Below, in pieces: positions 9,038-62,087 of a DNA stretch of 64,000 nucleotides; within the stretch, counting starts at the first letter, position 1, and every line of letters begins with the position of its first letter. The translations under genes and the position numbers were made by a program. The notes under the pieces were generated by a model. The model searched no databases. It had not been told where the DNA came from and saw only the letters and a program-made list of their open reading frames with translations. The DNA is from Naegleria gruberi (taxonomy: Eukaryota): the NCBI GenBank assembly GCA_000004985.1, contig GG738889.1. The stretch is one strand, 5' to 3'.

Positions 9038-9332
9038 TATTTATATTATTATTTACAAATTAACCACACACACCCAGAGAGTTTTCTTCTTATTGGTGAT
9101 GAGTGAGGGTCGAATAGAAAATTCGCAATTTTTTTACAGTTTTAAAATCAAGGCTTTGCTGGAAAATTACAATTTGAAATCGATAGAGATGAACAATAAT
9201 CTAAAGAAGATATAATATTTAAAAAGTGTGTACTAATAACATTGTTATTTAATATTAATTGAGGCTCTATTCTATTTACTTTGAGAAAAAAAATTTAAAT
9301 GTTTATTAATCGAATGGTACTTTGAGAAAAAA

Positions 9333-15100: not shown

Positions 15101-16728
15101 TGATCTTTCATCCTTGTCATAGTTGAAACGAACCACACGTTCATATTCAAGTATATCAACCTTTTGACTAGCATCAACAGCTTCATAACGTTGCTTTAAA
15201 GTTCTTGCTTGTTCATCATCAATTGGATGTGAGTATTTCCAAGCACATTGTTCCAAGATAGCGGTTGTCCAAGAGGCAATTAATTTCATACCTTGTTCAG
15301 TCATATCTTTAGCTTTTTCACGCATTGGTTGAGGAATAATTGTTAACAATTCTTGACTTGTTGGAGAATCCTTGATCAATTTCTTCATACGATTGATATG
15401 AAGTTTATAATTTTTAGTGAAATTTTGGAAATCAAATCTCATCTTTGGAATTTGATTAACAAGAAGGAATTGTTTTTGTAATTGTTCTTCTTCCTTTTGA
15501 GAGAGAGACCAATCCTTTTCTTGTAAATTTGGACAATTCTTTAAAACTGTCTTGATAGAGAATGTCATATCACCATATAATGGAATATTTGGATATGATT
15601 TGAAAATCTTGTTAAATCTACCCATACTGTTGGATCCAACTTTTCTCAAATAGTTATTCTTTGAAGTATCCTTGTTATCAATGAGATACATTCCAAATAC
15701 CAAAACACGAATTAATGTGTGTTTTTGATCACAGAACAAATATTGATGATCTTCAAAATTTTCAGAGCATCTTTCCATCAATAGAATGATAATATCTTCA
15801 TATCCAGCATTCTTTATCAGAGAATCTTTGAGACCAGAAATGATAGTATTATTGTTTGATAAGAAATTATAAAGAAGACCATATTCTTCACTCTTTGTAT
15901 CTAAGAAATTCAATTGTTCTTGTGTTAAACCTTCCTTGTCCATGAATTGAGCAGCACGTCTAACAGTTGACATGTCGTTGTTAATGGCTGCTTTCATGTT
16001 TTTGAGAGCATCCAACTTGAGGATTGTATCTAAAACACTAATCATATAATCAAACATGGTTTCACTAGGAATTTCCTTTCTCTTTTCATTAGCAGCCATT
16101 TCAATCATAATCTTTGTGAGTGTTTTGACGGTATTTGTGTGAAAAGCCATCAAATCACGAATCTTTTTAATTTCTGGTTCCAAAACATCGAAAAACTTTC
16201 TATATAATTCAGCCTTGTTTTCAGAATCTGCTTGAATTTGAGGAAGAGCACGTGAAATTGAACGATAAGTGTACAAGGTTTGAATAAAGTATTCACCAGT
16301 TTCTATTATTTCTTGCTATTATTATTGTAAGTGTTATTGTTAGTGATAGTGATGTTATTATTATAGTTGCGATATTTGATGGTTTTGTTGTTGTTATTCG
16401 AAATGGTGGAATCGAATAATATTTGTCATCAACAATTTGTGATTATTATATAATAAATAGTAAAATAAAGATCATAATTGTGAATGTAATATTAAATAGA
16501 AGCAGTGTGAGATTAGTCTAATCATGAGAACAAACCTACCAAAATTTGAATATGTTCAGCTTCTTTAGCAAAACGAGTAGTATAACCACAACGATCAGCA
16601 AAATTGAGTGGACTTGTAAAAGCACCAGTTTCGTAACTAATATAATCTGATGCTGCTTCAATGGTTGGCTGATTAGACTCAACCATGTAAGAGTTGAGTA
16701 CTTTCAATCGTTGCTTGGTATTGTCCAT
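12173..16728 (-). CDS. CYFIP: cytoplasmic FMR1-interacting protein (CYFIP/Sra-1/PIR121, WAVE/SCAR complex subunit). Two exons at about 16728..16540 and 16315..12173.
   Basis: Exon 1, MDNTKQ...NFADRCGYTTRFAKEAEHIQIL, aligns to the CYFIP N-terminus ([21 protein letters not shown]). A 224-bp intron (GTAGGT...AATAG) follows. Exon 2, QEIIETGEYFIQTLYTYRSISRALPQ..., aligns along the whole length of metazoan CYFIP1 and includes conserved blocks such as QFPIEMSLPWILTE and YDEIEAEVNL. It ends with a roughly 120-aa non-conserved Pro-rich tail. Confidence 0.9.
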
Positions 16729-19240: not shown

Positions 19241-19605
19241 ATTGTAATCTTACTCTTGAATAAAGCTCTTATTCTATCCACAAGAGTAAGGATTCAAAGT
19301 TGTTATTCAGCATGTTTTCAGTAGCAATGAATCAGGGAATTTTTCAGAGTCGAATTTTGATTCAGCTATTGGATCAAAACTCTCTATCAAATCAATTTGA
19401 TCCTCGAAAAATTTAATTCGGATCACAACTCAACATCAAATTGTTTATTTTTCAAAATTTGATATTGAGTTTTCACAAACTGACCATCAAAAATTTTATA
19501 CGGGACGCAGTATTATTAAGATTTAAAAAAAGGCTTTTTGGAATGACCAACAACGCTTTGAATAACAACAATACCAACACACTATTTTTAGCGAACACAC
19601 GGAAG

Positions 19606-22600
19606 ATGTGGTCGTCTTCAATGGTATATTGTGTTCTTATTTTAATGTTGATAATATACTTTATTGAGGCTACGGAATCAACAATAACGTGCAATAACAT
19701 TGATAGCAACTTGAGTAATGTTTGCTCAGGAAATGGAATTTGTATTTCCAATAATGTTTGTTCGTGTTATGTTGGTTTTGATGGAGCTGCTTGCGATACA
19801 CCAAGAACTATTCAGAATTTATTTGCAGGATACTCTGTCTTATCAAGAAATTCTTCAATATCATCCAACAAAATAATTAATTTATTTGGAAATGTTGCAA
19901 ACACTCCCTCATCGTCTCAACTCTATACTAATTTCAATATAACATCAGGTATTACACATGATGGAGATGTCTATGCTTCTCATTACATTAACCAAGCAGA
20001 ACAATACTTTAAACAATTAGACAACCTTCCTTGCGATTTTACTCTGAGATCATCTCCCCGTATTGGTAGAATTGAGGTTCGTTATGGAGGTGTTGGTTGT
20101 TTTGAGGCTGGTTGGACTGGTCCATCAACAGTGGTTATTAAGGGCTCTCAACGAGTAGTTTTCAAGATTAAGGGTAATTTCATTACCAATGAAATAACCT
20201 TTGCTCTCTCCAAATGTGCCTCAGAGAATAATATTTACTGGCTTGTGAATGGTAATACAAAGATAACTAACAATTTTAAGGGAATTCTGAAAACTGCTGG
20301 AAAGGTCGATATCACTAATGCTAACATTGATGGAACATTGTTCATTAATAATACCTCTGCGACTTTTACAAATGTAACCTTTGGACCTGTCTCCACATTT
20401 GATCCATATCAGTCATTAACTAACTCTGAGTGCTCTCTTTCTTCTTGTTATGGAATCCTTTCCAATGAAACATCTGTTTGTGCTGGTGTAGGTTTATGTT
20501 ACGATGACAATGCCTGTTTTTGTCCATTGGGATATGGACAAGATTGTTCATTACCTTTGTGTTATGGAGTGCTTCAAAACTCTGCTAGCGTATGTTCTGG
20601 CAACGGTAATTGTACAGGACCAGATACATGTGAATGCAAAGAAGGTCATCTGGGATTGAATTGTTCAATTTCTCTCCCACCTTGCTATGGAATTGGAAAT
20701 GATACCAGTCGCATTTGCTCAGGTGTTGGAAATTGTACATCGAAAGGAGTGTGCAGTTGCCCTGATGGATATGGATTTGATTGCTCAGTACCCATTTGTA
20801 ATGGAGTGCTTGCCTACAACAAAGCATGCAGTTCTCATGGTACATGTATTGCCCCTAACAGTTGCTCATGCTCATCTCATTATCATGGAGACAATTGTGA
20901 GCTTACTACATGTTTCGATATTCCATCAGATAATTCCACGACTTGTTCTGGAAATGGTGACTGTATAGATTACAATCGCTGTAGATGTTTTGATGGGTAT
21001 CAAGGAAGTGATTGTGGTCAGTTGACAACTACAATAATCTACGAAAATATCACAATCTATGAGAATGAAACCATATGGATTGAATATAACACCACAGAAT
21101 ATATCAATGAAACTATATATATTCGTCAAAATCAAACAGATGTAGTAATTGATGATGGTGCAATTATATTTACACCAAACCCTACAGGATCTAATCCAAT
21201 TACTTTCAACACAACTAGAGTCAATGTCACTATTATTACCTACTATAATGCAACCTCAAATTCTACTACCACAGTGACAACAACTACAACAACTGTTGTC
21301 GTGTATACCACAATAGTGTGTAGTAAATCCCTTAATTGTTCCAATCATGGAGAATGTAATTCCAATGGAGCTTGTACTTGCTATTCAAACTTTGATACTG
21401 GTTTTTGGTCAGGTTCTAGTTGTAACACTTGTAGAGATGGATTCCATGGTAATAATTGTGCTACAAAGGTTGTTGGACCTGCTTACATATCCAATGATTT
21501 CACAGGAGTTACGTTTTATCTTTATGCACCAAACTCTTACACAAGTAATCAAATAAGCTGCAACAAACTATTACATCCTGATGATATCAGTAGTAACATG
21601 TTTGGAGATGCAAGCAAAATACAATGTAGCTATGTAGATAGGGCTAGCTACTTGTTTATGATTACTTTTGGGTCTAATGATTATGTATTTAATGCTGGTG
21701 CGTCTAACTTACGTATTAACACTCATGTATTTGATCAGAGTGCAGGTTCTGCAGATTATCTTTCAATGATTATCAATCTACCACAAGGATTTTCTGGTCC
21801 AGTAGCCAAGATTTCAATGGCGTTTACTTCAACATACAGCTCTTGCGAAGAAATTGTAATTGATGGTTCAGGAAGTACTGCACCATATGGAGGTAGTCTT
21901 ACATATTACTGGACTTTGCTTAATGCAGCTACAATGCAGGTTTTATCGACAAACTTTGCAAATCAACCAAAAATTACTCTTCCAGCTTCATTAAGTTCTG
22001 GAAGTTACCAAGTATCTCTGAAAATTCAAGGTGAATTCTTACATCTTTCCAGTGCAGTAGTACACACAGGAACATTCACTAAAGCTCCAAAACCTGTTCC
22101 AGTAATAACTTTTTACAAAGGAAATACCCAGCTAAGGTATACTAATCAATTCCCATATACAATCAAAAAAGTAATCGAATCTCCTTGTAGAGACTCAAAT
22201 AATACAATAGTACGTTGGGAACAACTAAGCGGACCATCTATTGAGTACTCAGTGGACTCCTATAACAATCTATACATCCCAAAACTCAAAACATTTGGAA
22301 ACAATAACTATACATTTAAGGTATCCGCTTATTATACTGATGCAAATTATCAAGGTTCTAGTGATTTTGTTTTAATTACACAATCACCTCCTTTGAGTTT
22401 AGAACTTTATCAAGCTGAAGCAAAGACTGATCACTCGACTGTTGAGGTTATTTATTCAGACCCAGAATCTGCTTTAATCTCAAAAAGTGAAACATGGACT
22501 TGGTCTAGCTTGGATTATCAAGGACCAAGATTATATACATTTTTAACTACCCAATCCAATCAAAAATCTTCTAGTCTTTACTTGACATCCAATTATTTTG

Positions 22601-25038
22601 ATCCTGTGCCAGCAATGGTCACAATTCAATTAAGAATTGAAAAATCTGATGGTAGATTTGTACAAAAGTCTTCAATTGTTCGATTTGGTGCTGTTGCTCC
22701 TTCTTTCAACGTAATCAGTCAACAACCAAACACAGCTTACTTAAAACCAGGCTCTCCAATTACAATCCATTCATTGGTTTCTTCCTCTTCAACATCTGTG
22801 TTTGTTTCTTGGAGATTAAACAATGAAATGATTTCAACTACTAAGACAATAATTCAATCAAACTGGGGAAGACAAATTAATCAGGTTATGTTTGACACCT
22901 CAAATCTTGTGGATGGTACAACAAACACAATCACAGCAGTTGTTTCAGATTCAAGCACACAAGGAACAAGTACAACCACAATAGTTGTGCAAGTGGCTAA
23001 ACGTCCATCCCTTTGTGCATGTGATATTACTCCATCAGTTGGTATTGCTATGGAAACACAGTTTTCTTTCGGTTGTACTCAATGCAAAACAACCGACAAC
23101 AATGTTGACTATAATTATGGATTTATAGATGACAGGTCTGGAATGAAGGTGTCTCTGTATAAACTCGGAGAAGTATTTTCATCTACTTTACCAGCTCCAT
23201 TGAATGGAAATACCCTTACTTGTTATATTGACATAATTGATACTGTGACCGGAGGATCGGTTAACATGACAAAGAAAATAACAGTCAACAAACAATCAAC
23301 AACAAGCTTGTCTGAAATTCAAACCTTGGTAAAGTCTTGGACTGATACCGTAAATCAATACTTGAAAGACGGACAAATCAGTAAGAGTTTCTACATGACA
23401 GCAACTTTCCTAAGAACCGATACAGTGCTAGTTAGAGAAGCAATTAAGGTTCTTGCTTCAACTTCAAGAAGAGATATTGTTTGCTCTCATGGTGTTGAAG
23501 TATCTGGAGTTTGTAAATGTGCAGACGGTTATGTTGGTACTAACTGTGAGGTTCCAATATTTGGTTACAGTCAAAGCCAGTCTGTAAAATTAACAGCCTT
23601 TACAAACATTATTAAGCTTTCTAATTCATCTTATGACATCATCAATGATGAGTATTTTACTCTTTTAGTTTTCTCAATAGATTCTGTTTTGGAAAATTAT
23701 GAGTATCTAGAGAAGAAGACTGTTGGACAAGCCCTTGACACTCTGAACCTATACCTTACAAGTGTAGTTGCTATTGATGACTTTAACTTGCCAAACGGAG
23801 TAGAAATTCTTTTGAAAAACATTATTCAAAACACTTATATTTACGTCGTTGAAAAGCAAATGTTCACAGACCAAACAGAAAACTCAAAAAAGTTGCTTAT
23901 TCTCCTCACTTTAACAACAACTCTCATGTCAAGAACCATTTCTTATGGAAGTTCTTCTAGCGTATTCAAAACTCAATATTTTTCATATACAATGAATAAG
24001 TATTCAATTTACGATTTCCCTCCAATTGTGTCAGATAACTCAAGAATATGCCAAATTATTGTTGAAGGGCTGTTTTTCTCAAATGCAAAATCAACAAAAC
24101 TTTACAGACAACCATTTGGTTTTGTTATGACTGTGTCAGATGACGTTTTCCAATTAGGACCAACTATTGGATTGCAAAAATCAACTAAAGAAAACATTCA
24201 AGCAAGTTCCTCACTGGTTTCTCCTATTATGTCCTTATCATTTAATGGGTTGACTGCTCCTGTTGATTTTAATGGTATCATCTATATTCTTCCAATCAAC
24301 AAGACAACTACCTTTAAGATATTTGATCAAGGAACTTTTGATTATGTTGAATCTGTAACTGAATATACATGTAACTCTTTTAAGGATTCACCAGAAGCAA
24401 TTACCAAATGTAAGCTTGTTGAAATGAATGCAACCCACACAAAATGTAGTTGTTCTACCCTGGGTAATGTCTTTGTAATGGAAACCACAACAATTACAAA
24501 ATATTCCCTTACAATCTTTGTGATTATGGGAGCTTCTATTATTGTAATAGGTAGTGCTATAGTCACAATATTCTCATTCTGTTGCTGTTGTTGCCGTTGT
24601 GTTGTGATAGGAAGAAGAAGATTCTCTGAACGTCATAGCGAGGCAAAGATAGTTCGTGTTAAGCATGATGTTAGAGCAATGTTTTTGGAAAAACCAGGTA
24701 CAAATGACTTTGTTACAACAGAAAGAGTTCAACTAAGGAATGATAACAATAAGGTTACAAGAACTATTATAACTACAGACCCTCTCTTAGTTACAAATAA
24801 CACAAAGACAGTTGTTATGCAAAGCCCAAGAATGTACACAAAGGAAACAACCTATGTTACCAAAACTCATCATCACCAAGGAGGACAAACAGTTGTTTTT
24901 GATACACCTAGACCTGAAGTTGTCATAGCATCTCGCCCAAGGGTTCTTGAGGAAATTGTAACCAATCGACCAGTTGTTGTGAGAAGAAATCAAGTTCAAC
25001 CAATGGATGTTGAACTTGTTGAGAGAAGAAGATATTAA
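19606..25038 (+). CDS. large EGF/tenascin-like repeat type I transmembrane glycoprotein
   Basis: The likely start is at 19606 (MWSSSMVYCVLILMLIIYFIEA), which looks like a signal peptide. The track ORF starts upstream in frame at a non-coding Met. The mature protein has more than ten C-x-G-x-G-x-C...C-x-C-x-x-G-(F/Y)-x-G-x-x-C EGF-like modules and very many N-x-S/T sites. It also has a Thr-rich mucin-like stretch and a single TM (IFVIMGASIIVIGSAIVTIF) followed by a Cys-rich juxtamembrane and a short cytoplasmic tail. Confidence 0.8.
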   Translation: MWSSSMVYCVLILMLIIYFIEATESTITCNNIDSNLSNVCSGNGICISNNVCSCYVGFDGAACDTPRTIQNLFAGYSVLSRNSSISSNKIINLFGNVANTPSSSQLYTNFNITSGITHDGDVYASHYINQAEQYFKQLDNLPCDFTLRSSPRIGRIEVRYGGVGCFEAGWTGPSTVVIKGSQRVVFKIKGNFITNEITFALSKCASENNIYWLVNGNTKITNNFKGILKTAGKVDITNANIDGTLFINNTSATFTNVTFGPVSTFDPYQSLTNSECSLSSCYGILSNETSVCAGVGLCYDDNACFCPLGYGQDCSLPLCYGVLQNSASVCSGNGNCTGPDTCECKEGHLGLNCSISLPPCYGIGNDTSRICSGVGNCTSKGVCSCPDGYGFDCSVPICNGVLAYNKACSSHGTCIAPNSCSCSSHYHGDNCELTTCFDIPSDNSTTCSGNGDCIDYNRCRCFDGYQGSDCGQLTTTIIYENITIYENETIWIEYNTTEYINETIYIRQNQTDVVIDDGAIIFTPNPTGSNPITFNTTRVNVTIITYYNATSNSTTTVTTTTTTVVVYTTIVCSKSLNCSNHGECNSNGACTCYSNFDTGFWSGSSCNTCRDGFHGNNCATKVVGPAYISNDFTGVTFYLYAPNSYTSNQISCNKLLHPDDISSNMFGDASKIQCSYVDRASYLFMITFGSNDYVFNAGASNLRINTHVFDQSAGSADYLSMIINLPQGFSGPVAKISMAFTSTYSSCEEIVIDGSGSTAPYGGSLTYYWTLLNAATMQVLSTNFANQPKITLPASLSSGSYQVSLKIQGEFLHLSSAVVHTGTFTKAPKPVPVITFYKGNTQLRYTNQFPYTIKKVIESPCRDSNNTIVRWEQLSGPSIEYSVDSYNNLYIPKLKTFGNNNYTFKVSAYYTDANYQGSSDFVLITQSPPLSLELYQAEAKTDHSTVEVIYSDPESALISKSETWTWSSLDYQGPRLYTFLTTQSNQKSSSLYLTSNYFDPVPAMVTIQLRIEKSDGRFVQKSSIVRFGAVAPSFNVISQQPNTAYLKPGSPITIHSLVSSSSTSVFVSWRLNNEMISTTKTIIQSNWGRQINQVMFDTSNLVDGTTNTITAVVSDSSTQGTSTTTIVVQVAKRPSLCACDITPSVGIAMETQFSFGCTQCKTTDNNVDYNYGFIDDRSGMKVSLYKLGEVFSSTLPAPLNGNTLTCYIDIIDTVTGGSVNMTKKITVNKQSTTSLSEIQTLVKSWTDTVNQYLKDGQISKSFYMTATFLRTDTVLVREAIKVLASTSRRDIVCSHGVEVSGVCKCADGYVGTNCEVPIFGYSQSQSVKLTAFTNIIKLSNSSYDIINDEYFTLLVFSIDSVLENYEYLEKKTVGQALDTLNLYLTSVVAIDDFNLPNGVEILLKNIIQNTYIYVVEKQMFTDQTENSKKLLILLTLTTTLMSRTISYGSSSSVFKTQYFSYTMNKYSIYDFPPIVSDNSRICQIIVEGLFFSNAKSTKLYRQPFGFVMTVSDDVFQLGPTIGLQKSTKENIQASSSLVSPIMSLSFNGLTAPVDFNGIIYILPINKTTTFKIFDQGTFDYVESVTEYTCNSFKDSPEAITKCKLVEMNATHTKCSCSTLGNVFVMETTTITKYSLTIFVIMGASIIVIGSAIVTIFSFCCCCCRCVVIGRRRFSERHSEAKIVRVKHDVRAMFLEKPGTNDFVTTERVQLRNDNNKVTRTIITTDPLLVTNNTKTVVMQSPRMYTKETTYVTKTHHHQGGQTVVFDTPRPEVVIASRPRVLEEIVTNRPVVVRRNQVQPMDVELVERRRY

Positions 25039-51096: not shown

Positions 51097-52963
51097 TTAC
51101 TCTCTAAGTACGAATAGATCACCATAATTTTCAACCAGATATTTCCATTGCAAATCTGTTAATCCAATTCCTAATTGCAAAGTTTCACTTGTATTTCCAT
51201 GTAAGAATGCATGATGAAGGAAATCCATCTTTTCAAAGTTGACCATTCCTCTTGGTTGGCCCAAAATTCTAAAATTGATATCATTTAAAAAGTCATACTT
51301 CATCCAATTTGTCATTGAGAAGGTAATCCTTGCATCATCAATAATTACCTTATATCTGTCCATGTGTTCTTCATCGTGGTAGGATTTACTCATCTCTTGA
51401 ATAAATCTTTCAGTTGCCTTTTCAGTATTTTGTTCATTAACTTGCTTTCTAACTTGCATCACTAGCTCTGCAAGTGACATCTTTAGGATTTCGCTCTTCT
51501 TTTGAGAGATCCAAACATTCGAAAGAGGATTGCCAATATACATTTTAGTGTCATCTCTGATTGGAGGATAATTAAATCTAAAGTTGCATACCATTCTAAA
51601 GGAGAGAGTAGTTTCCCCTGGTTGACTTGGGTCTGCGTGAGCCATCATTGAAAAGAGAATTGCTGAAATAACATCATTGGTTGATACAATTGAATTGTTT
51701 GGAGTGGAATTTTTGATTTTCTGTTTGAGAATTTCTAATTGTTTTTTGGAAATGTTAATTCTTCTAGCTTTGGCTTTGTATTGACGAAGACAATTAATCA
51801 TGTTAAAGACATATTTGTGGAATTTGTAAAATTCCTGATGAGAATAGGTAATATTTGGACTAAAAAACAATTAATTACATCATGGTATCTATACTTACTC
51901 AATCTTTTCTTTTGGTAATATCAAGTTGACTCTTGACATGGTTGGTAATTGAGTTGGATTTTGTTGACATGTCATCTCAGCCCAAAATTTCATAAAAAAG
52001 TGTCCAACTTCAGCTCCACCAACAGAATGATTCAATGCAAGTGCAATAACAGGTACAATTCTTCCATTTTCCAATTTAAGAAATGAAATTTGTATTCTTG
52101 ACAATTCCTTTTCCGAATATGGTGATTTAATTTCTGGTTTAAATACCAATTCACTCTCCATTTCCAATAAATCGCTTTCATCCTCAACTTTTCCAACTTG
52201 CTTTTCAATAATTGCAACATTTAACATTGGATTTTCCACTACAATCTATTCGCACCTAAAGCAAGGATTAGGAAACGATTCTTTTTGGCTTGCTTTTCTC
52301 GTCGCACATGTTTTTTGTTTCACACTAATTTTTTGTTTTAGCTCATTTCTTGCTTTAGTATCTTTCTGAGGTGTGTAGTTTGTAGTGATGATAAATAACC
52401 AAAAATGGTTTCTGTCTCCCTTTTACCAAATTTCTCTCCTCTTCAGAAAGTAGAGCCAAATCCTTTTCATCCATTGGATTTAAATCTCTATATCTTCCTC
52501 CAACTGTTGGAAAATAGAAAAGAGTCCTTTCCAATCCTTCAATTAACATTTTTTCACACTCAACCAAATCTTCCTCATCAATTTCATTAAAATACACAGA
52601 ATATGGTACATAGGAAGTTCTAAATCTAGCATAGCCATCATTGAGAGTTAGAATTGTACATTTCTTTTGATACATTTCCAATAAATTCTCATCACAATTT
52701 TCCACATTTGGAATTTTTGAATGAACACTAACAATTTTCACTTTCTTTGATGGATATTCACTCGATTGTGAAAGTATCAGATCAGAAATACTAGTTTCAG
52801 GTTTGTAAGTTGCCATCTTCCAAACAGTATTCATCACCAACCAATCTAAAATATTGCTAAATGTCAATTGTCTAAACGTTCCTTGTTTTTTCCATAATGA
52901 CCACATCATGATCACTGCAATTGCTCCTCCGGTGAGGCAAACACCCAACACAACCAACAACAT
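51097..52963 (-). CDS. BAHD/HxxxD-type acyltransferase-family-like protein with N-terminal TM anchor. Three exons at about 52963..52427, 52245..51899 and 51859..51097.
   Basis: Exon 1 gives a TM helix plus ...LERTLFYFPTVGGRY, which matches the LxxxLxxFYPLAGRL block. Exon 2 contains LALNHSVGGAEVGHFFMKFW, which is the HxxxD(G) catalytic block with Asp replaced by Gly. The exon 2/3 junction is a GTAAGT...TTTTTTAG intron in phase. The exon 1/2 junction is tentative (GTAAAA donor). Confidence 0.45.
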
Positions 52964-53191: not shown

Positions 53192-56100
53192 ATGATAACA
53201 CGTTATGTCATTGGAAAGGTGAAGGAAAGAATCAGTGAGAATAACAAGAAGAATCTAGAGGATACCTTTGCACGTTCCCGAAAGCAATTTCTTGAAGAAA
53301 AGGAACAAGCCAAGTCAAAAAGCAAAAAGAATGACAAGTCAATTGTCAAGAAGAAGGAACAGGCTGATGTTTCAATTATCGGATCAATTGATTCTGCATT
53401 GAAAGGAGCATGTTTTCCTGATCCTGATCCAAAGTTGAATGCTAATGTTTATGTTGATGATGTTGCACGTTTAAATATGACAAATGTCAAACGTGTTTTT
53501 CATGTCAGAAATGAGCAAGATATTCAAAGAGTTTTTGAGTATGCAAGAAGAATGAACTTTAAAGTATCAATGAGAGGTACCCAACACTGCATGGGTGGTC
53601 ATACCATTGCCAAAGATGGTTTAGTTATAGACACACGTAAATTACTAAAAATGGAATTTGATTCTCAAAGTGAAACTGTTAGAGTTGGAGCTGGTGTAAG
53701 ATGGAGTGATTTGATTTTCTATTTGAATCAGTTTGGTATGTCTCCTCACACAATGCAGAGTTATTCAACTTTTAGTGTGAGTGGAACTGTCAGTTGTAAT
53801 GCTCATGGAATTACAACTGATTTATGTTCACATGAAAGTGTATTAGAAATGAGAGTGGTGATGTGGGATGGAAGAATTGAGACGTGCACTCCAGATTCTG
53901 AATTATTCAAGTGTTGCATTGGTGGTTTTGGAATGTTTGGTTTCATTAGTGAACTCGTGTTAAAATGTGTTCCAAATCATCAAATATTTATGGAAATGAT
54001 TCAATGCAAGGCAAATGATTTCTTGGATTTTTATGAGAGAATTCTGCAGGATCCACAAAATGATATTAATATCAAATTGGCTCGTTTGGATATTTCCAAT
54101 TTTAATGATATTAACATTTTTGTGTTTAGAAAGAATTCAGATAGAAAAACTGTTTCAGATTTGCCACTCCATCCAAAGACAATGTCCATCCAAAGTCAAA
54201 TCATTTACAAGTGGTTAGCTCCAAGTGCAGGTTCTATTCGTTATTCAGTTGAACGTTTAACAGGAAGACCAGCTGATTGGTCTGTCGTTAATGATAGAAA
54301 TTTACTCATGTACGAAACTTCGACTCCTCTGGCTAAACTTTATTCTCCTCTATTCGATGTGAATGATACATTCATTTTACAGGAATACTTTGTACCACAT
54401 TCTAAATTCCAGGAATGGATCATGAGTGCTTCAAAAATCATTCAATCTCATCCATCTCATCTCAAACAATTCACACTTCTCAATATCACCATTCGTTATG
54501 TAAAGAAAGATAATTGTACATTCCTTCCGTATGGTAGACATGATGAGGGATCATTTGCATTCGTATTGTACTATAGAATGAAGTGTACTGATGAGGCAGA
54601 TAGAGAATTGGCAACACTTCATAATGATCTAGTTGAGGCCACTTTGAAATTGAATGGCATCTTTTATTTACCTTACAGACATCATTACAGTGATGAACAG
54701 TTGAAGAAAGCTTATCCAATGATTGATGATTTCTTTAAACTCAAAGCTAAATATGATCCTCGTGGAATGTTTGATTCATTGTGGTTTAATAGATATGGTA
54801 AACAGTATTTTGAAAAGTATGCGAATGAAAATTCTGATCACTCCATTGGTCAATCAACTGCAGATTTAGTTGGTAATAATAAGGAAGCAATAACAGAGCT
54901 AATTAAATCAGTTGAAACCAGACGAAATGATTCTTACCGTAAGGTATTCAATAATCCACAATTGAGGAAGCAATTTTATGAGGCATTCCTTGAACAAATT
55001 TTCAATGTCGAAAGCAAAGCAACCTTGGAAAATGTAATCTCATCAGCCATGTGGAATATCAAGTGCCAAGACGATAGTGATATCTACTCTTTCATTTTAC
55101 AAAAATTGTCAAAACAAGGATTAGTTTCAAATGTTTTGAAATTATGGAGAGGATCCAATCAAAACAGAAGTCAAAAGAAGGAACTATTGAGAGAAACTTC
55201 ATCCATTCTATCTAAAATTGGAAAGATGGGATCGATTAGAGATTATGTCTCAATTGGTGATAGTGGTAAAATGGTTTTGGCTTTTAAGGAATGTCTTGGA
55301 ATTGATGGAAATATCCACATTGTCAATGATAATGAACCATCTGATGAAAATATGGGTGTTTATATGGAGAGAGGTTCTTTGAAACCTGTTGGAAAGTTTG
55401 TGAAATTGAACTATTCTTGCCTTGATTTAGAAAGTTCATCGGCTGACATGGTTACAATGAATCAAGGTCTCCATCACATTCCACCTCAACATTTGCAATC
55501 TTTCCTTAAGGAAGTTTTCAGAATTTTGAGACCTGGAGGTATCTTTATTGTGAGAGAACACGATGCCACTCCAGAGCTCAAACCACTTCTTGACATAGCC
55601 CACAGTGTCTTTAATGCAGTGATGAATGTTGACATTCTCGATGAGAGAAATGAAGTCAGAGCATTCAGATCCATCTTGGAATGGCGTACAATTGTAGAAT
55701 CTGTTGGATTTTTAGATACAATGATTTATGAGATGGAACACGGAGATCCAACTCTAGATGAGATGATGGCTTTTTGTAAGTGTTCTGATCTCTCTCAAAT
55801 TTCAGAGGAATCTACTTCAGCCAAATCAACAAATCAATCTTCACTGCCACCAAAACAACTCAAGACAGCTCCTGAAGGAAGTACTTCAATGGGAATCGCT
55901 CTCACCATTGATGCACTACTTGCCAAAGTTCCAAACTTTGTGATTGAATTTTTCAGAAAGTTTGTCTCTTGGATTTTAGGATGGTTCAAAAAGATTCCAG
56001 GATTGATTGAAGATTTGAATCTATCCTCGATGGTAAAACCATTCATTGATCAGATATTGAATGAATATTGTAAACCAATTGAGGAATTCTTGGAAAAATT

Positions 56101-57655
56101 GGTTCCTCTCCTATTGGATGTGAAAATTAAGGAAGATGGTTTGGAAATTATTCCACCAGAATTATTCCTCCTCATTGAAGGTTTGTATAGGAAGAAGAAT
56201 AGAAGTGCTGTCGAATCATTAATTGTTGTGATTATTGACTCAATCACTGGATTGGTTCAAGAAAGAAACGAATCATCCAACAAGAATGAAACTATAACAA
56301 TTCCTTCAAAGGATGATGTTGATGTGAAGGAAGTTACTGAATTAATGAAAAAGCTATTCGAAAGAATGCCAGATTTGCTGAGTGAGGATAAATTGAAAAG
56401 GGGTGGATTAGGAAATATCACACCATTTGTTAAGGCCATCGCCATGATGACTCCAGAAGAAATGGCTCCTAAATTAGTTTCCTTCCTCGATATAATTTCA
56501 TGGAGTTTAATGAAAGAGCCACTCCTTGAGATTATTGAAAGTAAGAAGGAGATTCCACTCTCGATGGATAACATTTGCAAAGTTGGAAATCCTTGGAACA
56601 GATGCGCTTCTGCCTTCCTCAGTTCTCCAAATGTAAAGTTAAACAAGTATAGTGAAATTGGATGGTGGGCTCTTGGATTAACTCCAATTCTCAATTTGTG
56701 GAAAGAAGCTCAACAAGAAAGATGTAAACAAAATGAAAAGAATAGACCAACAAGAGGAATAGTCGATCAGCTGAGCACTTCTGCTGAAACTATGCTCGAA
56801 TCAGCTGTAGGCCTCTCATTCATGACTGGAGATCAATCCCAGCTCTCTAATTACCTTAAGGAGACAAACATTCTTAAAGTGAGTGAAGCTAATACCAATG
56901 TGGAATTTAATTGGTACAAATTGGTGGAATGGTTACAAGTGGATTATGTTCAAACATTTGGAAAATTCATGGAAAATACACCATGGTACAGATTTCCATT
57001 TATTGAATTCTTAAGAGTTTATTTCCAAACTCTATATGAAGAATTCAAAATTATCAACTCTGAATATGGATTTGATAAATCACTCATGAGCTCTGCATTT
57101 TTCACTGATTTGATTCCAGGAGTTGCCATGACTGTTTTGATGGGACAAATGCAAGCTCTTGCCATTCCTCTCAAAATGGGCTTGGGTGAAACAGCTTCCA
57201 AAGAGGTTGTTTCTGGACAAGTTGAAACTATTCTAATCACTCTCGTTGATGATAATCCAATGACATTTGTTTCAATTGACGACAGAATTATTTTTGAAAC
57301 CATTGTTCCAGGTCTATTCCAAATCACTGTACCAACCTACAAACCATTCTCAGATATTATCATGAAATTGGCAAGACAACTTCCAGAATCCAGTAGAATT
57401 TTGGCCATTTCTCATCATGAACAGATTCAACTTAGAGTCAAAACTCCAAGCAAAGAGGAAGTTCATAAAATGGCTTCCCTTGAAGGTTGCAATGTTAAAT
57501 TCACCTTTGAATTGCCAACGGATGGCACTGAACAATATTCACCTTCAATTTATTCATCTGTCGAAGTGAAAACTATTCATTTATTACAATTTATTAGAAC
57601 ATGTAATGAGCTTTCATTTGAAATTATTCAAATTTTTGATTTCTGTTCTGTTTAA
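53192..57655 (+). CDS. large multidomain protein with an N-terminal FAD-linked oxidase (PCMH-type FAD-binding, ALO/GLO-like) fused to a class I SAM-dependent methyltransferase-like domain and a roughly 600-aa C-terminal region
   Basis: ATG start with a continuous 1487-aa ORF. Residues about 80-250 are VKRVFHVRNEQDIQRVFEYARRMNFKVSMRGTQHCMGGH...VRVGAGVRWSDL, the FAD_binding_4 pattern. The oxidase module ends with the typical ...YDPRGMF motif near residue 530. Residues about 690-860 (LDLESSSADMVTMNQGLHHIPPQHLQSFLKEVFRILRPGGIFIV) match the methyltransferase type-11 post-I/II motifs. Confidence 0.7.
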   Translation: MITRYVIGKVKERISENNKKNLEDTFARSRKQFLEEKEQAKSKSKKNDKSIVKKKEQADVSIIGSIDSALKGACFPDPDPKLNANVYVDDVARLNMTNVKRVFHVRNEQDIQRVFEYARRMNFKVSMRGTQHCMGGHTIAKDGLVIDTRKLLKMEFDSQSETVRVGAGVRWSDLIFYLNQFGMSPHTMQSYSTFSVSGTVSCNAHGITTDLCSHESVLEMRVVMWDGRIETCTPDSELFKCCIGGFGMFGFISELVLKCVPNHQIFMEMIQCKANDFLDFYERILQDPQNDINIKLARLDISNFNDINIFVFRKNSDRKTVSDLPLHPKTMSIQSQIIYKWLAPSAGSIRYSVERLTGRPADWSVVNDRNLLMYETSTPLAKLYSPLFDVNDTFILQEYFVPHSKFQEWIMSASKIIQSHPSHLKQFTLLNITIRYVKKDNCTFLPYGRHDEGSFAFVLYYRMKCTDEADRELATLHNDLVEATLKLNGIFYLPYRHHYSDEQLKKAYPMIDDFFKLKAKYDPRGMFDSLWFNRYGKQYFEKYANENSDHSIGQSTADLVGNNKEAITELIKSVETRRNDSYRKVFNNPQLRKQFYEAFLEQIFNVESKATLENVISSAMWNIKCQDDSDIYSFILQKLSKQGLVSNVLKLWRGSNQNRSQKKELLRETSSILSKIGKMGSIRDYVSIGDSGKMVLAFKECLGIDGNIHIVNDNEPSDENMGVYMERGSLKPVGKFVKLNYSCLDLESSSADMVTMNQGLHHIPPQHLQSFLKEVFRILRPGGIFIVREHDATPELKPLLDIAHSVFNAVMNVDILDERNEVRAFRSILEWRTIVESVGFLDTMIYEMEHGDPTLDEMMAFCKCSDLSQISEESTSAKSTNQSSLPPKQLKTAPEGSTSMGIALTIDALLAKVPNFVIEFFRKFVSWILGWFKKIPGLIEDLNLSSMVKPFIDQILNEYCKPIEEFLEKLVPLLLDVKIKEDGLEIIPPELFLLIEGLYRKKNRSAVESLIVVIIDSITGLVQERNESSNKNETITIPSKDDVDVKEVTELMKKLFERMPDLLSEDKLKRGGLGNITPFVKAIAMMTPEEMAPKLVSFLDIISWSLMKEPLLEIIESKKEIPLSMDNICKVGNPWNRCASAFLSSPNVKLNKYSEIGWWALGLTPILNLWKEAQQERCKQNEKNRPTRGIVDQLSTSAETMLESAVGLSFMTGDQSQLSNYLKETNILKVSEANTNVEFNWYKLVEWLQVDYVQTFGKFMENTPWYRFPFIEFLRVYFQTLYEEFKIINSEYGFDKSLMSSAFFTDLIPGVAMTVLMGQMQALAIPLKMGLGETASKEVVSGQVETILITLVDDNPMTFVSIDDRIIFETIVPGLFQITVPTYKPFSDIIMKLARQLPESSRILAISHHEQIQLRVKTPSKEEVHKMASLEGCNVKFTFELPTDGTEQYSPSIYSSVEVKTIHLLQFIRTCNELSFEIIQIFDFCSV

Positions 57656-60704: not shown

Positions 60705-62087
60705 ATGCCTCAAACTCCCTCTCTTTTTTCTCTCTCTGCTTCTGAAGCAATTTTTAGAAGGTTTGTAGTACCAACCGACAAATTTTTCTTATCATCATCA
60801 TCATACAATTTAATTTATTAATTAATTAATCATTGAAACCAACACTTGAACAATTTATAATAATTATTATTATGATAGTGTTGAGTGGGATAAATACAAG
60901 GAGATCGTTGAGATTGGCTCAGGTGCATACGGGCGAGTTTTCTCTGCTGTAAACCGTCAAACAAATGAATTGGTAGCTATTAAAACCATCAAACTTGCCA
61001 ATGACGAAGAAGGTATTCCAATCTCTGTCATCAGAGAAATTACTCACCTTCGTTCTTTGAAACATGATAACATTGTTGGTCTTAGAGAGGTCTTTATCAA
61101 TGATGATGGTTGTACCCTTTGTATGGTGATGGAATATGTACCACATGATCTTTCTGGCATTGTTAACGGTTTGAATAACGTATTAGATGAGGCTTTCGTT
61201 AAGTCTGTTATGCAACAATTGCTTTCAGCTCTTGCTTGTATTCATGACAGTGGATCACTCCACTGCGATTTAAAAAGTATGATTCAACTTTATACTTTTA
61301 ATTCTAACAACGTTATATTACTTATGAATTCATAACAACCAACCGAATAATAGCATCTAACGTTTTCATACACGCCAATGGACAAGTAAAGCTTGGAGAT
61401 TTTAATCTGAGCAGAAAAGTACATCCTGAAGAATTTGGAGTTGTCCAACACTTTTCCAGAAACATCATTACTTTATGGTACAGACCACCAGAACTCTTGG
61501 TCGATCAATTTGGATCAAGTCGATATGGTCCAGAAGTTGACATGTGGAGCATGGGATGTATCTTTGCAGAATTGCTTTTAAGATCACCATTGTTCCCAGG
61601 CAACACTGAAGTCGAACAATTGTTCAAAATCATACAATTATTGGGTACAGCCAATCAACGTAATTGGCCTGATGCTTCTAAACATCAAACATATAGAGAT
61701 CACTTCTCCAACAAGGTAATCCCAAACACCTTGCGCTTAAAGTTTAAGGATTTTGCTGACTACAGTCCACAAATTGTAGACCTCCTCGAAAAACTTTTGA
61801 AATTGGACCCAAGAGAACGTATCTCTGCTAGAGAAGCACTTAAACATCCATGGTTTAATCAAGCACCATTACCAAAAGACACTAGTGTTATCCTTCCATC
61901 TTATTTAACTCCTTTCAATGAAAATTGGGTAAAACAACAAATCAAATTAAGACAAGAAGAAGCCGAAAAACAAAATCCAAAAAAAAGAAAAGAATACCCA
62001 AAGGCTTCTACATCCAGTTCATGTTATAATCATCACGAACTTGAAAACTCTTACTCTTCATGCAAGAAGAAAATTAAACAATACTAA
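60705..62087 (+). CDS. cyclin-dependent-kinase-like Ser/Thr kinase with atypical catalytic motifs. Three exons at about 60705..60760, 60889..61276 and 61354..62087.
   Basis: Exon 1 is MPQTPSLFSLSASEAIFR| with a GTTTGT donor, followed by a 128-bp intron. Exon 2 is SVEWDKYKEIVEIGSGAYGRVF..VAIK..PISVIREITHL (a PSTAIRE-like helix C) ...LHCDLK|. A 77-bp intron follows. Exon 3 is TSNVFI..KLGDFNLSRK...WYRPPELL plus a CMGC insert. HRD is replaced by HCD and DFG by DFN. Confidence 0.7.

What the first reader, a model, noticed from the sequence alone, without database searches (positions are those of the whole stretch)
53192..57655. Giant fusion of a FAD-linked oxidase with a SAM-methyltransferase-like domain plus a 600-aa unknown tail
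Residues about 60-530 form a complete vanillyl-alcohol-oxidase/ALO-type FAD-binding oxidoreductase. It has the PCMH FAD-binding domain and the C-terminal substrate domain ending ...YDPRGMF. It is followed in the same ORF by a region with class I methyltransferase motifs (LDLESSSADMVTMNQGLHHIPP...FRILRPGGIFIVREHD), and then by a long helical C-terminal region. An oxidase-methyltransferase didomain enzyme suggests a two-step tailoring activity on a single small-molecule substrate, for example oxidation followed by O- or N-methylation. I cannot place it in a described family from sequence alone.
Basis: partly seen in the sequence, partly recalled or inferred. Interest (0 to 1): 0.6.

Follow-up and report, generated by a model that had tools for sequence, protein, structure and literature searches.

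The report
Widespread uncharacterised oxidase–methyltransferase-like three-module enzyme
This is a real 1,487-residue Naegleria gene that joins a flavin oxidase, a methyltransferase-fold module and a previously undescribed end domain. The same three pieces lie side by side as separate genes in thousands of bacteria, so it is a member of a large enzyme system whose function nobody has worked out, not a one-off oddity.

Summary
The ORF (53192-57655, + strand, 1487 aa) is real and identical to the annotated Naegleria gruberi protein 'FAD linked oxidase'. The oxidase and methyltransferase-fold calls both hold up.

The '600-aa tail' has two parts:
- a helical insert found only in eukaryotic 'long' forms (aa ~902-1185);
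- a universally conserved C-terminal domain (aa 1237-1487), modelled as a hydrophobic three-helix bundle plus two ACT-like βαββαβ units, with no close solved homologue.

More than 200 proteins from protists, rotifers and giant viruses share the architecture. In bacteria the oxidase, the MTase-like module and the C-domain are adjacent genes or are fused in other combinations, usually with a small DUF805 membrane protein. This is Rosetta-stone evidence that the three modules work together at a membrane. No member has been characterised.

It is undercut by the bacterial stand-alone MTase-like proteins: 103 of 120 carry twin-arginine export signals yet keep the same invariant pocket, and no SAM pool is known outside the cytoplasm. 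The substrate is unknown. Scattered neighbours and fusions (GDPD, PAP2, LplT/Aas-like, lipases) hint at a phospholipid head group.

Verdict: uncharacterised family, a new variant of a known kind, moderately interesting.

The parts
53192..53413 (+). N-terminal Lys/Ser/Glu-rich region (aa 1-74). It is not conserved and has no hydrophobic anchor.
   Evidence: Almost no homologue aligns to aa 1-50 and few to aa 51-75. Composition: 15 of 74 residues are Lys. Long forms lack an N-terminal hydrophobic segment (1 of 57 has one), unlike short forms.
53414..54826 (+). Module 1: VAO/PCMH-superfamily FAD oxidase/dehydrogenase (aa 75-545). The FAD_binding_4 match covers aa 101-232 and the ALO-type cap match aa 393-534.
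   Evidence: Pfam. A profile of the domain against PDB gives GLDH 3e-31, DprE1 1e-27, CKX 2.5e-27 and xylitol oxidase 6.5e-24. There are many invariant residues, for example L396, E398, R435, D440, Y447, Y460, R462, Y495 and K518.
53585..53587 (+). His132 codon: candidate covalent FAD attachment site, in the motif RGTQHCMGGH.
   Evidence: It aligns with the His of the GHS motif of cytokinin oxidase. It is His in 104 of 104 eukaryotic and viral homologues that cover the position. Bacterial homologues have Tyr or Phe there, as in GGGRYSMGGQ. That the CKX His is flavinylated is established knowledge, not tested here.
54881..55219 (+). Helical cap of module 2 (aa 564-676, six helices).
   Evidence: pLDDT is about 90-97 and the region is all-helical. 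It is conserved. It is included in the stand-alone bacterial MTase-like genes, which align to q567-864.
55244..55783 (+). Module 2 core: class I (Rossmann-like, seven-strand) methyltransferase fold (aa 685-864).
- Non-canonical motif I: VSIGDSGK (aa 686-693).
- β2 acid: D713.
- GLHH: aa 759-762.
- REH: aa 788-790.
- Further conserved positions: AH..FN at aa 803-808, E821, R823, DPT at aa 852-854.
   Evidence: Pfam Methyltransf_11, _25 and Ubie_methyltran. AF2 strand order β1-β7. Foldseek top hit is Coq5 with SAM bound, E 1.4e-7. The invariant residues are shared by eukaryotes and bacteria.
55895..56746 (+). Long-form-specific all-helical insert (aa ~902-1185). It is flanked by low-confidence linkers at aa 868-907 and 1186-1236.
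   Evidence: Present in 71 of the 105 homologues with a complete C-domain and absent from the 34 short forms. All-helical, pLDDT mostly 70-94. An HMM of the insert finds nothing in the bacterial loci. No Pfam match.
56900..57652 (+). Module 3: conserved C-terminal domain (aa 1237-1487). A hydrophobic three-helix bundle (aa 1243-1331, with the motifs EW..V and TPWYRFPF) is followed by two tandem βαββαβ (ACT/ferredoxin-like) units (aa 1344-1481). The protein ends ...QIFDF.
57653..57655 (+). Stop codon. The next ORF is convergent on the - strand and ends at 57665.

Best explanation
The ORF encodes the Naegleria gruberi member, a 'long form', of a large uncharacterised family of three-module flavoenzymes.

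**Modules**
- Module 1 is a VAO/PCMH-superfamily FAD oxidase/dehydrogenase. It belongs to the clade that holds the aldonolactone oxidoreductases, DprE1, cytokinin oxidase and alditol oxidases. These enzymes oxidise a C-OH or C-N bond of a polar group.
- Module 2 is a UbiE/Coq5-like class I methyltransferase fold with its own helical cap and a strongly conserved His/Arg/Glu/Asp pocket.
- Module 3 is a new domain: a hydrophobic helical bundle followed by two ACT-like units.

**Shown.** The three modules form one functional unit. In bacteria they are encoded by adjacent genes or are fused in every other pairwise combination. They usually come with a small polytopic membrane protein (DUF805 or PLDc_N-like).

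**Inferred.**
- The unit works at a membrane surface on an amphipathic small molecule. The most likely candidate is the polar head group of a (lyso)phospholipid or another lipid-linked polyol or sugar.
- Module 1 oxidises the substrate and module 2 performs a second, coupled step on the same molecule.
- In the Naegleria protein there is no signal or anchor, and the SAM-contact aspartates D713 and (in most homologues) D740 are conserved.
- Module 3 would serve for membrane or ligand binding, or for regulation.
- The long-form helical insert replaces the N-terminal membrane anchor that short forms carry.

For: **Conservation.** 206 homologues in dictyostelids, Balamuthia, dinoflagellates, Perkinsus, Amoebophrya, diatoms, Bodo, Cymbomonas, bdelloid rotifers, Tupanvirus and Edafosvirus share the domain order.

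**Rosetta-stone evidence in bacteria.**
- Oxidase-MTase fusion followed by a downstream C-domain gene, with DUF805 upstream: L002, L005, and L065-L071, where 6 of 6 look-ups showed it.
- DUF805-oxidase, MTase and C-domain as three consecutive genes: L004, L041.
- DUF805-oxidase-MTase fusions: L009, L010, L022.
- Oxidase-C-domain fusions next to a stand-alone MTase-like gene: L020, L036, L049, L072-L074.
- A full oxidase-MTase-C-domain fusion inside a 3756-aa Elusimicrobia protein: L001.
- MTase-C-domain proteins of 530-600 aa.

**Membrane association.**
- DUF805 has three predicted transmembrane segments.
- The C-domain helices are hydrophobic.
- Short forms carry N-terminal anchors.

**Lipid hints.**
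- GDPD-oxidase fusions: L011, L012.
- A PAP2 gene upstream of the oxidase in Gilliamella.
- An LplT/Aas-like MFS-acyltransferase upstream in L067, L069 and L070, and α/β-hydrolases downstream in L070 and L071.
- A GDSL lipase upstream in L002.

**SAM contacts.** D713 is Asp in 97 of 120 homologues and position 740 is Asp in 89 of 120 (Asn in N. gruberi). These correspond to the Coq5/RquA aspartates that bind the SAM ribose and the adenine N6 (PMC9814641).
Against: - No member has been assayed, so the substrate is unknown.
- The lipid-related neighbours are not universal. Several come from related Proteobacteria and could reflect shared synteny.
- Many bacterial loci and several giant-virus contigs carry the oxidase alone, so module 1 can work without the others.
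- Motif I is GxxG rather than GxGxG.
- The bacterial stand-alone MTase-like proteins have twin-arginine signals in 103 of 120 cases, and their oxidase partners have export signals. That places the same conserved pocket where no SAM pool is known. This argues that the core function of module 2 may not be methyl transfer.
- The topology of the operon type with DUF805, oxidase-MTase and C-domain is internally inconsistent: the C-domain has a signal peptide and the oxidase-MTase protein does not.
Confidence: 0.5

Rival explanations
1. Module 2 is not a turnover methyltransferase anywhere in the family. On this reading it is one of three things: a SAM-independent or metal-dependent catalytic domain; a domain that holds SAM or an adenosyl ligand as a tightly bound, non-consumed cofactor; or a substrate- or quinone-binding domain that serves the oxidase. 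The Naegleria enzyme would then carry out an oxidation plus a non-methylating second step, as RquA, LepI and RdmB do on the same fold.
For: - 103 of the 120 closest stand-alone bacterial MTase-like proteins carry an RRx(x)ΦΦ twin-arginine motif. All keep the invariant pocket: G689, G692, D752, H761, H762, R788, H790, H804, N808, E821, R823, D852, T854. None has an acid at the β2 position 713, and 56 of 120 have D or E one residue later.
- Their oxidase-C-domain partners have cleavable-looking signals that end just before the conserved VNDVT start.
- Tat export is typical of proteins that fold around a cofactor in the cytoplasm (established knowledge).
- Motif I is non-canonical.
- There are weak sequence matches to RquA: E 3e-5 for L049 and 0.09 for the query. 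RquA is a membrane-associated MTase-fold enzyme with disrupted SAM motifs that does not methylate (PMC9814641).
- RdmB, a hydroxylase on this fold, is among the Foldseek hits.
Against: - Eukaryotic members and most cytoplasmic-type bacterial fusions keep the β2 Asp and the adenine-contact Asp.
- The fold and the best structural matches are ordinary small-molecule methyltransferases with SAM or SAH bound.
- The signal predictions are motif-based. No SignalP or TatP run was possible.
Confidence: 0.3
2. It is a DprE1-like lipid-linked sugar oxidase. Module 1 would oxidise a polyprenyl-phosphate- or dolichol-phosphate-linked sugar to the keto sugar. Module 2 would then C- or O-methylate it, since a keto group activates the neighbouring carbon, or would hand it on for epimerisation.
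For: - DprE1 is the best NCBIfam match of the bacterial oxidases (87-99 bits) and the second best of the query (64 bits).
- DprE1 is among the top PDB profile hits at 1e-27.
- The system is membrane-associated, and DprE1 acts outside the cytoplasm. The latter is established knowledge, not checked here.
Against: - All scores are far below the DprE1 equivalog cut-off of 500.
- GLDH scores better in the PDB profile search.
- No DprE2-like reductase or glycosyltransferase recurs in the neighbourhoods.
Confidence: 0.08
3. It is an aldonolactone oxidase or dehydrogenase of ascorbate or erythroascorbate synthesis that happens to carry extra domains.
For: Pfam ALO match above its cut-off. TIGR01678 is the best NCBIfam hit. 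GLDH is the best PDB profile hit.
Against: - TIGR01678 scores 68 bits against a cut-off of 396.8. TIGR01676 (GLDH) scores 37.6 against 458.
- Only the FAD subdomain and the last helix align.
- The HWxK signature is not present anywhere in the protein.
- The obligate association with an MTase-like module, the C-domain and membrane proteins has no counterpart in ascorbate synthesis.
Confidence: 0.03
4. It is a gene-model or assembly artefact in which two or three neighbouring genes are read as one ORF.
For: None beyond the unusual length. No Naegleria transcript data could be consulted.
Against: - The frame is uninterrupted for 1487 codons in DNA with 33% G+C (P about 1e-50 by chance).
- The same order of modules appears in more than 100 proteins from unrelated eukaryotes, including transcriptome-derived complete ORFs.
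- It also appears in giant viruses (L057).
Confidence: 0.02

Closest known systems
DprE1 (decaprenylphosphoryl-β-D-ribose 2'-oxidase, VAO superfamily)
   Same: It has the PCMH-type FAD domain plus cap and acts at a membrane on a lipid-anchored polar group. The bacterial homologues share its non-covalent-type motif (GGGR[YF]S). It is among the best profile matches.
   Different: Scores are 64-99 bits against a cut-off of 500. The eukaryotic members have a His at the covalent-FAD position. DprE1 has no MTase-like module and no C-domain, and no DprE2 partner occurs here.
Aldonolactone oxidoreductases (GLDH, GULO, ALO) and alditol/xylitol oxidase
   Same: Best PDB profile hit is GLDH at 3e-31. The Pfam ALO cap domain matches above its cut-off. 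The C-terminal helix is similar...AYP.I..F...K..YDP.
   Different: The NCBIfam family cut-offs are missed by a factor of 5 to 10. There is no HWxK motif. The substrate-domain sequence cannot be aligned. These enzymes have no extra modules.
Cytokinin oxidase/dehydrogenase (CKX)
   Same: Best single-sequence PDB hit (LuCKX1.1, 1.2e-13). His132 aligns with the His of the CKX GHS motif.
   Different: Only the FAD subdomain aligns. There is no match to the cytokinin-binding cap. CKX is a secreted or vacuolar plant enzyme with no extra modules.
Coq5 / UbiE / MenG quinone C-methyltransferases
   Same: Best Foldseek hit is 4obw, yeast Coq5 with SAM bound. The Pfam Ubie_methyltran match is just above its cut-off at 25.9 against 20.1 bits. 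These enzymes act on membrane-embedded substrates.
   Different: TIGR01934 scores 21 bits against a cut-off of 158. Motif I is GxxG. The six-helix N-terminal cap is specific to this family, as is the invariant HH / R.H / H...N / E.R / D.T pocket.
RquA (rhodoquinone synthesis; MTase fold that transfers the SAM amino group; PMC9814641)
   Same: It is UbiE/Coq5-like, with disrupted canonical SAM motifs but retained ribose- and adenine-contact aspartates. It is a monotopic membrane protein found in bacteria and protists. It gives weak sequence matches.
   Different: Matches are far below its cut-off (12-24 bits against 175). RquA is a single-domain protein. No metal dependence has been tested here.
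MnmC (tRNA mnm5s2U synthesis), a bifunctional FAD oxidase plus SAM methyltransferase (PMC3527978)
   Same: A flavin oxidoreductase domain and a class I methyltransferase domain sit in one polypeptide and act one after the other on one substrate. In some organisms the two domains also occur as separate proteins.
   Different: Its FAD domain is of the DAO/glutathione-reductase type, not the VAO type. The domain order is reversed. The substrate is tRNA. It has no third domain and no membrane association. It is not homologous as a fusion.
PsoF (pseurotin pathway), a fused C-methyltransferase / flavin epoxidase (PMC7982431; PDB 6kjg)
   Same: It is a small-molecule tailoring enzyme that fuses an MTase to a flavoenzyme. 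Its MTase domain is among the Foldseek hits (ranks 22-47).
   Different: Its flavin part is a monooxygenase of another superfamily. It is specific to a fungal secondary-metabolite cluster. It has no C-domain.

Membership tests
VAO/PCMH FAD-linked oxidoreductase superfamily | PCMH-type FAD-binding domain (Pfam FAD_binding_4 above its gathering score) | tested here: met
   89.2 bits against a cut-off of 26.4, aa 101-232. 42 PDB relatives, all of this superfamily apart from one Coq5 methyltransferase match at aa 732-813.
VAO/PCMH FAD-linked oxidoreductase superfamily | Bound FAD, covalent or non-covalent | not testable with these tools
   His132 aligns with the His of the CKX GHS motif and is invariant in eukaryotic and viral members. 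Cofactor content needs the purified protein.
Sugar 1,4-lactone oxidases / GLDH (TIGR01678, TIGR01676) | Whole-protein score above the curated cut-off | tested here: not met
   68.1 against 396.8, and 37.6 against 458.25.
Sugar 1,4-lactone oxidases / GLDH | C-terminal HWxK signature. That this motif defines the family is recalled from the literature. | tested here: not met
   A regular-expression search for HW.K finds nothing in the 1487 aa. The corresponding conserved stretch reads GIFYLPYRHHY.
DprE1 (NF053785) | Equivalog score of at least 500 | tested here: not met
   63.8 bits for the query; 87-99 bits for the bacterial homologues.
Cytokinin oxidase/dehydrogenase | Cytokinin-binding cap domain in addition to the FAD domain | tested here: not met
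   No Pfam match other than FAD_binding_4 and ALO in aa 75-545. The PDB alignment to CKX ends at about aa 290-329.
Class I SAM-dependent methyltransferases | Seven-stranded Rossmann-like fold with the β1-β7 topology | tested here: met
   AF2 strands at segment residues 141-144, 164-168, 191-194, 207-212, 235-246, 296-304 and 312-319, with pLDDT >90. Foldseek probability 1.00 to many SAM- or SAH-bound MTases. Methyltransf_11 scores 35.9 against 21.2 bits.
Class I SAM-dependent methyltransferases | Motif I glycine-rich loop (D/E)xGxGxG | tested here: not met
   The sequence is VSIGDSGK, that is GxxG. There is no G.G.G anywhere in the protein. Bacteria have E(I/V)G(S/T)xGR. The loop is conserved but non-canonical.
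Class I SAM-dependent methyltransferases | Acidic residue at the end of β2 (ribose contact) and an acidic residue after β3 (adenine contact) | tested here: inconclusive
   D713 is present (Asp in 97 of 120). Position 740 is Asn in N. gruberi and Asp in 89 of 120. In the Tat-signal bacterial forms position 713 is S, T or A.
Class I SAM-dependent methyltransferases | Binds SAM and transfers a methyl group | not testable with these tools
   This needs a binding or activity assay. The export signals on the bacterial homologues cast doubt on it.
UbiE/COQ5 family | Family model above its cut-off | tested here: inconclusive
   Pfam PF01209 scores 25.9 against 20.1, covering a partial profile (positions 56-170 of 233). 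NCBIfam TIGR01934 scores 21.2 against 158 and is not met.
RquA (NF038261) | Equivalog score of at least 175 | tested here: not met
   12.5 bits for the query; 23.8 bits for L049.
ACT-domain regulatory modules (for the C-terminal βαββαβ pair) | βαββαβ fold with significant structural or sequence similarity to ACT domains | tested here: inconclusive

The most novel reading that the evidence does not exclude
The conserved 'methyltransferase' pocket is not a methyltransferase. On this reading the oxidase, the MTase-fold module, the C-domain and a small membrane protein form a previously unrecognised machine that modifies lipid head groups.
- In bacteria it works on the outer face of the cytoplasmic membrane. 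The MTase-fold subunit is exported already folded through the Tat pathway, perhaps carrying a bound adenosyl or SAM cofactor or a metal that is not consumed.
- The same machine was inherited or acquired by many protists and by giant viruses.
- Naegleria's long form would be a soluble or peripheral version in which a helical insert replaces the membrane anchor.
Probability: 0.2. Interest if true: 0.8.

Novelty: new variant of a known kind. Interest (0 to 1): 0.5.

Why it matters
The family is large.
- At least 206 eukaryotic and viral proteins share the architecture.
- The bacterial families are also large: at least 1,998 C-domain clusters and 1,542 stand-alone MTase-like clusters.

It spans bacteria, many protist supergroups and giant viruses, and it has no assigned function.

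The bacterial gene arrangements now define which pieces belong together. They also give tractable models, such as Rhodanobacter and Stenotrophobium, for finding the substrate.

Three outcomes are possible:
- If the lipid head-group idea is right, this would be a new and widespread membrane-lipid modification.
- If the exported MTase-fold subunit really works without a SAM supply, it would add a new non-canonical use of the methyltransferase fold.
- If it turns out to be an ordinary two-step tailoring enzyme, the value is mainly in annotation. The 'unknown tail' becomes a defined third domain, and hundreds of 'hypothetical proteins' are linked to a flavoenzyme system.

Tried and rejected
1. **Bacterial or viral origin of the window.** Rejected. 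The neighbours are eukaryotic housekeeping genes (CNNM, CYFIP, SCC3, Mre11, TCP-1), and the protein is identical to an N. gruberi entry.
2. **Ascorbate-pathway lactone oxidase, DprE1, CKX, UbiE or RquA membership.** All family cut-offs are missed.
4. **Literature.** Searches found no description of the family: FAD_binding_4 with Methyltransf_11; FAD-linked oxidase with methyltransferase and Naegleria; DUF805; and a broader combined search. A search for periplasmic Tat-signal SAM methyltransferases found no relevant precedent.
5. **Conserved operon partners beyond the core.** Housekeeping neighbours of the oxidase-only genes (ptsP, guaA/B, a PvdQ-like amidase) were uninformative. The neighbours of the three-module loci vary.
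6. **N-terminal extensions of some eukaryotic homologues.** They have no Pfam domain, and no DUF805 or GDPD.
7. **The long-form insert.** No Pfam match and no bacterial counterpart.
9. **A simple 'loss of the β2 acid' story for exported forms.** It is only half true: 56 of 120 have D or E one residue later.

Full report
**Observation.** The window is eukaryotic DNA with about 33% G+C. Its genes include a CNNM-type transporter, LRR proteins, a BAHD-type transferase split into fragments, CYFIP, cohesin SCC3, Mre11 and TCP-1. It has no tRNA genes. The ORF at 53192..57655 (+) is 1487 codons from ATG to stop. It is 100% identical to the database protein 'FAD linked oxidase [Naegleria gruberi]' on a 348-kb contig. 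At the window's composition a stop is expected every ~13 codons, so a 1487-codon open frame has a chance probability of about 1e-50.

Pfam finds three matches above their gathering scores:
- FAD_binding_4, aa 101-232, 89 bits;
- ALO, aa 393-534, 36 bits;
- Methyltransf_11, aa 724-787, 36 bits, with several sister MTase families and Ubie_methyltran also matching.

No NCBIfam family cut-off for the whole protein is reached:

| NCBIfam model | Score (bits) | Cut-off (bits) |
|---|---|---|
| Sugar 1,4-lactone oxidase (TIGR01678) | 68 | 397 |
| DprE1 (NF053785) | 64 | 500 |
| UbiE/MenG (TIGR01934) | 21 | 158 |
| RquA (NF038261) | 12.5 | 175 |

Against solved structures, the single sequence matches only the FAD subdomain of cytokinin oxidases, GLDH, xylitol oxidase and DprE1. 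A profile of the oxidase domain ranks GLDH at 3e-31, DprE1 at 1e-27, CKX at 2.5e-27 and xylitol oxidase at 6.5e-24. The domain is therefore a separate branch of that clade, not a member of any of these families. There is no HWxK motif. His132, in RGTQHCMGGH, aligns with the His of the CKX GHS motif. It is invariant in all 104 eukaryotic and viral homologues that cover it. Bacterial relatives have Tyr or Phe there.

**The family.** A search of 5.8 billion proteins returned 206 homologues. They share the same order of modules. They come from dictyostelids, Balamuthia, dinoflagellates, Perkinsus, Amoebophrya, diatoms, Bodo saltans, the green alga Cymbomonas, bdelloid rotifers, Tupanvirus and Edafosvirus. 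Several are complete ORFs from transcriptome assemblies, which argues against a gene-model artefact. Mapping the homologues on the query gives this layout:

| Residues | Status |
|---|---|
| 1-74 | Variable |
| 75-545 | Oxidase |
| 564-864 | Conserved block that holds the MTase fold |
| 864-1185 | Present in 'long' forms only (71 proteins) |
| 1186-1236 | Variable |
| 1237-1487 | Conserved in both long forms and 'short' forms (~1080 aa, 34 proteins) |

Invariant residues cluster in the MTase block: G689, D690, G692, G759, H761, H762, R788, H790, A803, H804, N808, E821, R823, F825, D852 and T854.

**Structure.**
- The AlphaFold2 model of aa 1225-1487 is confident: pLDDT 91.7, pTM 0.85. It shows three long helices, the second and third of them hydrophobic, followed by two βαββαβ units.
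- Foldseek gives tandem-ACT regulatory domains at E 3e-4 to 1e-2 with low TM-scores.
- The C-domain is therefore a new combination with no close solved relative.
- The model of aa 545-1487 (pLDDT 80.9) shows a six-helix cap and a canonical seven-strand class I fold at pLDDT >90. An all-helical insert follows at pLDDT 70-94, and then the same C-domain.
- Foldseek places the MTase module among small-molecule methyltransferases. Yeast Coq5 with SAM bound is first (1.4e-7), followed by Rv2258c, plant-type OMTs, PsoF and RdmB.
- By sequence profile the similarity to solved MTases is weak (E about 1e-4) and confined to β4-β5.

**Bacterial Rosetta stone.** A scan of one genome for each of 185,579 bacterial and archaeal species found 56 loci. 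ORF calling, clustering, BLAST and local HMMs, together with Pfam, show the three conserved modules in almost every combination:
- an oxidase-MTase fusion followed by a separate C-domain gene, with a DUF805 membrane-protein gene just upstream (Rhodanobacter L002/L003, L005);
- DUF805-oxidase, MTase and C-domain as three consecutive genes (Chitinophagales L004, L041);
- DUF805-oxidase-MTase fusions (L009, L010, L022);
- oxidase-C-domain fusions with a neighbouring stand-alone MTase-like gene (L020, L036, L049; also L025, L038, L052);
- a 3756-aa Elusimicrobia protein that holds an ATP-grasp domain plus oxidase, MTase and C-domain in the eukaryotic order (L001);
- GDPD-oxidase fusions (L011, L012);
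- about 30 oxidase-only genes.

The stand-alone MTase-like genes align to q567-864. A bacterial C-domain HMM hits the short eukaryotic and viral forms at 1e-28 to 1e-14, and hits Naegleria collinearly at 5e-7.

The bacterial families are large:
- at least 1,998 C-domain clusters, all 'hypothetical' and without a Pfam match;
- 1,542 stand-alone MTase-like clusters.

All six C-domain look-ups showed the operon DUF805, then FAD_binding_4-Methyltransf, then C-domain. All three MTase-like look-ups showed an adjacent ~810-aa oxidase-C-domain gene. Two of those three also had a small polytopic membrane ORF upstream.

A full phmmer scan of 1.84 billion representatives with the Naegleria C-domain found 301 proteins. 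In all of the listed hits the domain sits at the extreme C-terminus. The hits include a class of 530-600-aa MTase-C-domain proteins. Giant-virus contigs carry either the full short form (L057) or the oxidase alone.

**What this implies.** That the three modules act together is well supported. Several observations point to action at a membrane:
- the three-TM DUF805 partner or fusion;
- the hydrophobic C-domain helices;
- the N-terminal anchors of the short forms.

Long forms such as the Naegleria protein lack an anchor (1 of 57 has one) and carry the helical insert instead. The insert has no bacterial counterpart.

The substrate is not identified. The recurring hints are lipid-related:
- GDPD fusions;
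- a PAP2 gene next to the oxidase in Gilliamella;
- LplT/Aas-like MFS-acyltransferase genes upstream in three loci, and α/β-hydrolases downstream in two;
- a GDSL lipase in Rhodanobacter.

These fit oxidation of a polyol, sugar or amine head group of a (lyso)phospholipid or another lipid-linked molecule. They are not universal, and some may reflect shared ancestry of the loci.

**Is module 2 a methyltransferase?**

*Points in favour:*
- the fold;
- the SAM- or SAH-bound structural neighbours;
- retention in eukaryotes of D713 (97 of 120) and, in most, D740 (89 of 120; Asn in N. gruberi).

These are the positions that contact the SAM ribose and adenine in Coq5 and RquA (PMC9814641).

*Points against:*
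- Motif I is GxxG.
- 103 of the 120 closest stand-alone bacterial homologues start with a twin-arginine signal, for example LTRRELLKLAAAF. One of them, L049, also has a lipobox.
- Those bacterial proteins keep every invariant pocket residue but have S, T or A at position 713. 56 of the 120 have D or E one residue later.
- Their oxidase-C-domain partners carry signal peptides that end just before the conserved VNDVT start.
- Stand-alone C-domains carry signal or lipoprotein signals.

No SAM pool is known outside the cytoplasm, so at least this branch is unlikely to be a turnover methyltransferase. Tat export suggests a cofactor that is bound before export. RquA is a precedent for a UbiE-like, membrane-associated MTase fold with disrupted motifs and non-methyl chemistry. 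One topology puzzle remains. In the DUF805 operons the oxidase-MTase protein has no signal while the C-domain has one.

**Verdict.**
- The tail is now resolved into an insert plus a third conserved domain.
- The protein belongs to a large, uncharacterised, ancient three-module flavoenzyme system.
- For the Naegleria protein I favour a two-step reaction at a membrane surface on an amphipathic small molecule: oxidation, then a SAM-dependent transfer (confidence 0.5).
- The main rival is that module 2 does not methylate at all (0.3).
- The closest functional analogies are MnmC (PMC3527978) and PsoF (PMC7982431). The closest relatives by sequence are DprE1, GLDH and CKX for module 1, and Coq5, UbiE and RquA for module 2. 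Membership of each of these families was tested and not met.
- Novelty: a new variant of a known kind. Interest: 0.5.

Noticed in passing
L049:6846-7871(-), L020:9725-10858(-), L036:6903-7871(-), L039:2814-3773(-); P0356-P0475: Stand-alone bacterial MTase-fold homologues almost always begin with a twin-arginine (Tat) signal: 103 of 120. L049 also has a lipobox (LMAGC). An apparently exported SAM-methyltransferase fold is unusual, and a literature search found no relevant precedent.
   Followed up: partly
L001:15-11285(+): An Elusimicrobia MAG encodes a 3756-aa protein. It combines an ATP-grasp / L-amino-acid-ligase-like region (aa ~405-692) with the oxidase, the MTase-like module and a complete C-domain at its C-terminus.
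   Followed up: partly
L011:7056-9302(+), L012:6342-8627(+): In Candidatus Odyssella (an amoeba symbiont) and in a Bdellovibrionota MAG, the oxidase is fused to an N-terminal glycerophosphodiester phosphodiesterase (GDPD) domain.
   Followed up: partly
L002:7612-7977 / 7974-10241 / 10238-11302; L065-L071: Topology paradox. In the operons of the type DUF805, oxidase-MTase, C-domain, the C-domain protein has an N-terminal signal peptide but the oxidase-MTase protein has none. Yet the two are fused in eukaryotes and in L001. The DUF805 gene and the oxidase gene overlap by 4 nt in different frames.
   Followed up: no
L072:9478-9837(-), L074:9444-9818(-): Small ORFs of 119-124 aa with three or four predicted transmembrane segments lie directly upstream of the oxidase-C-domain genes. 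They carry a W..D.R.RG...W...LP.YL motif that resembles PLDc_N/DUF805. No Pfam hit is on record for them.
   Followed up: no
P0036: The Balamuthia mandrillaris orthologue (1605 aa) is named 'Accessory Sec system protein Asp3' in its source. This looks like a mis-annotation.
   Followed up: no
window 51097-51870(-) and 51895-52239(-): Just upstream of the finding, the ORF at 51097-51870 (-) matches only the middle of the BAHD-type 'Transferase family' profile (positions 214-376 of 434), so this is probably an intron-split gene. The adjacent - strand ORF at 51895-52239 was not scanned. This shows that the window does contain introns, while the 4.5-kb gene has none.
   Followed up: no
window 61497-62087(+): A 196-aa ORF matches only the C-terminal lobe of the protein-kinase domain (profile positions 171-263). 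It is probably one exon of a split gene.
   Followed up: no
window 19441-25038(+): A single 1865-aa ORF carries teneurin-type EGF repeats and a REJ (polycystin-1/sperm receptor) domain. This is a large surface-protein-like gene in an amoeboflagellate.
   Followed up: no
window 12173-16276(-): A CYFIP/Sra1 (FragX_IP) homologue of 1367 aa has a weak, sub-threshold match to a proline-rich FH1-like stretch at its C-terminus (aa 1279-1365).
   Followed up: no
L058-L060, L062, L063 (giant-virus contigs): Several giant-virus MAG contigs encode the oxidase module alone (447-496 aa, E down to 1e-183 against the eukaryotic oxidase HMM). No MTase-like or C-domain gene lies within the fetched flanks, which reach up to 8 kb on each side.
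   Followed up: partly
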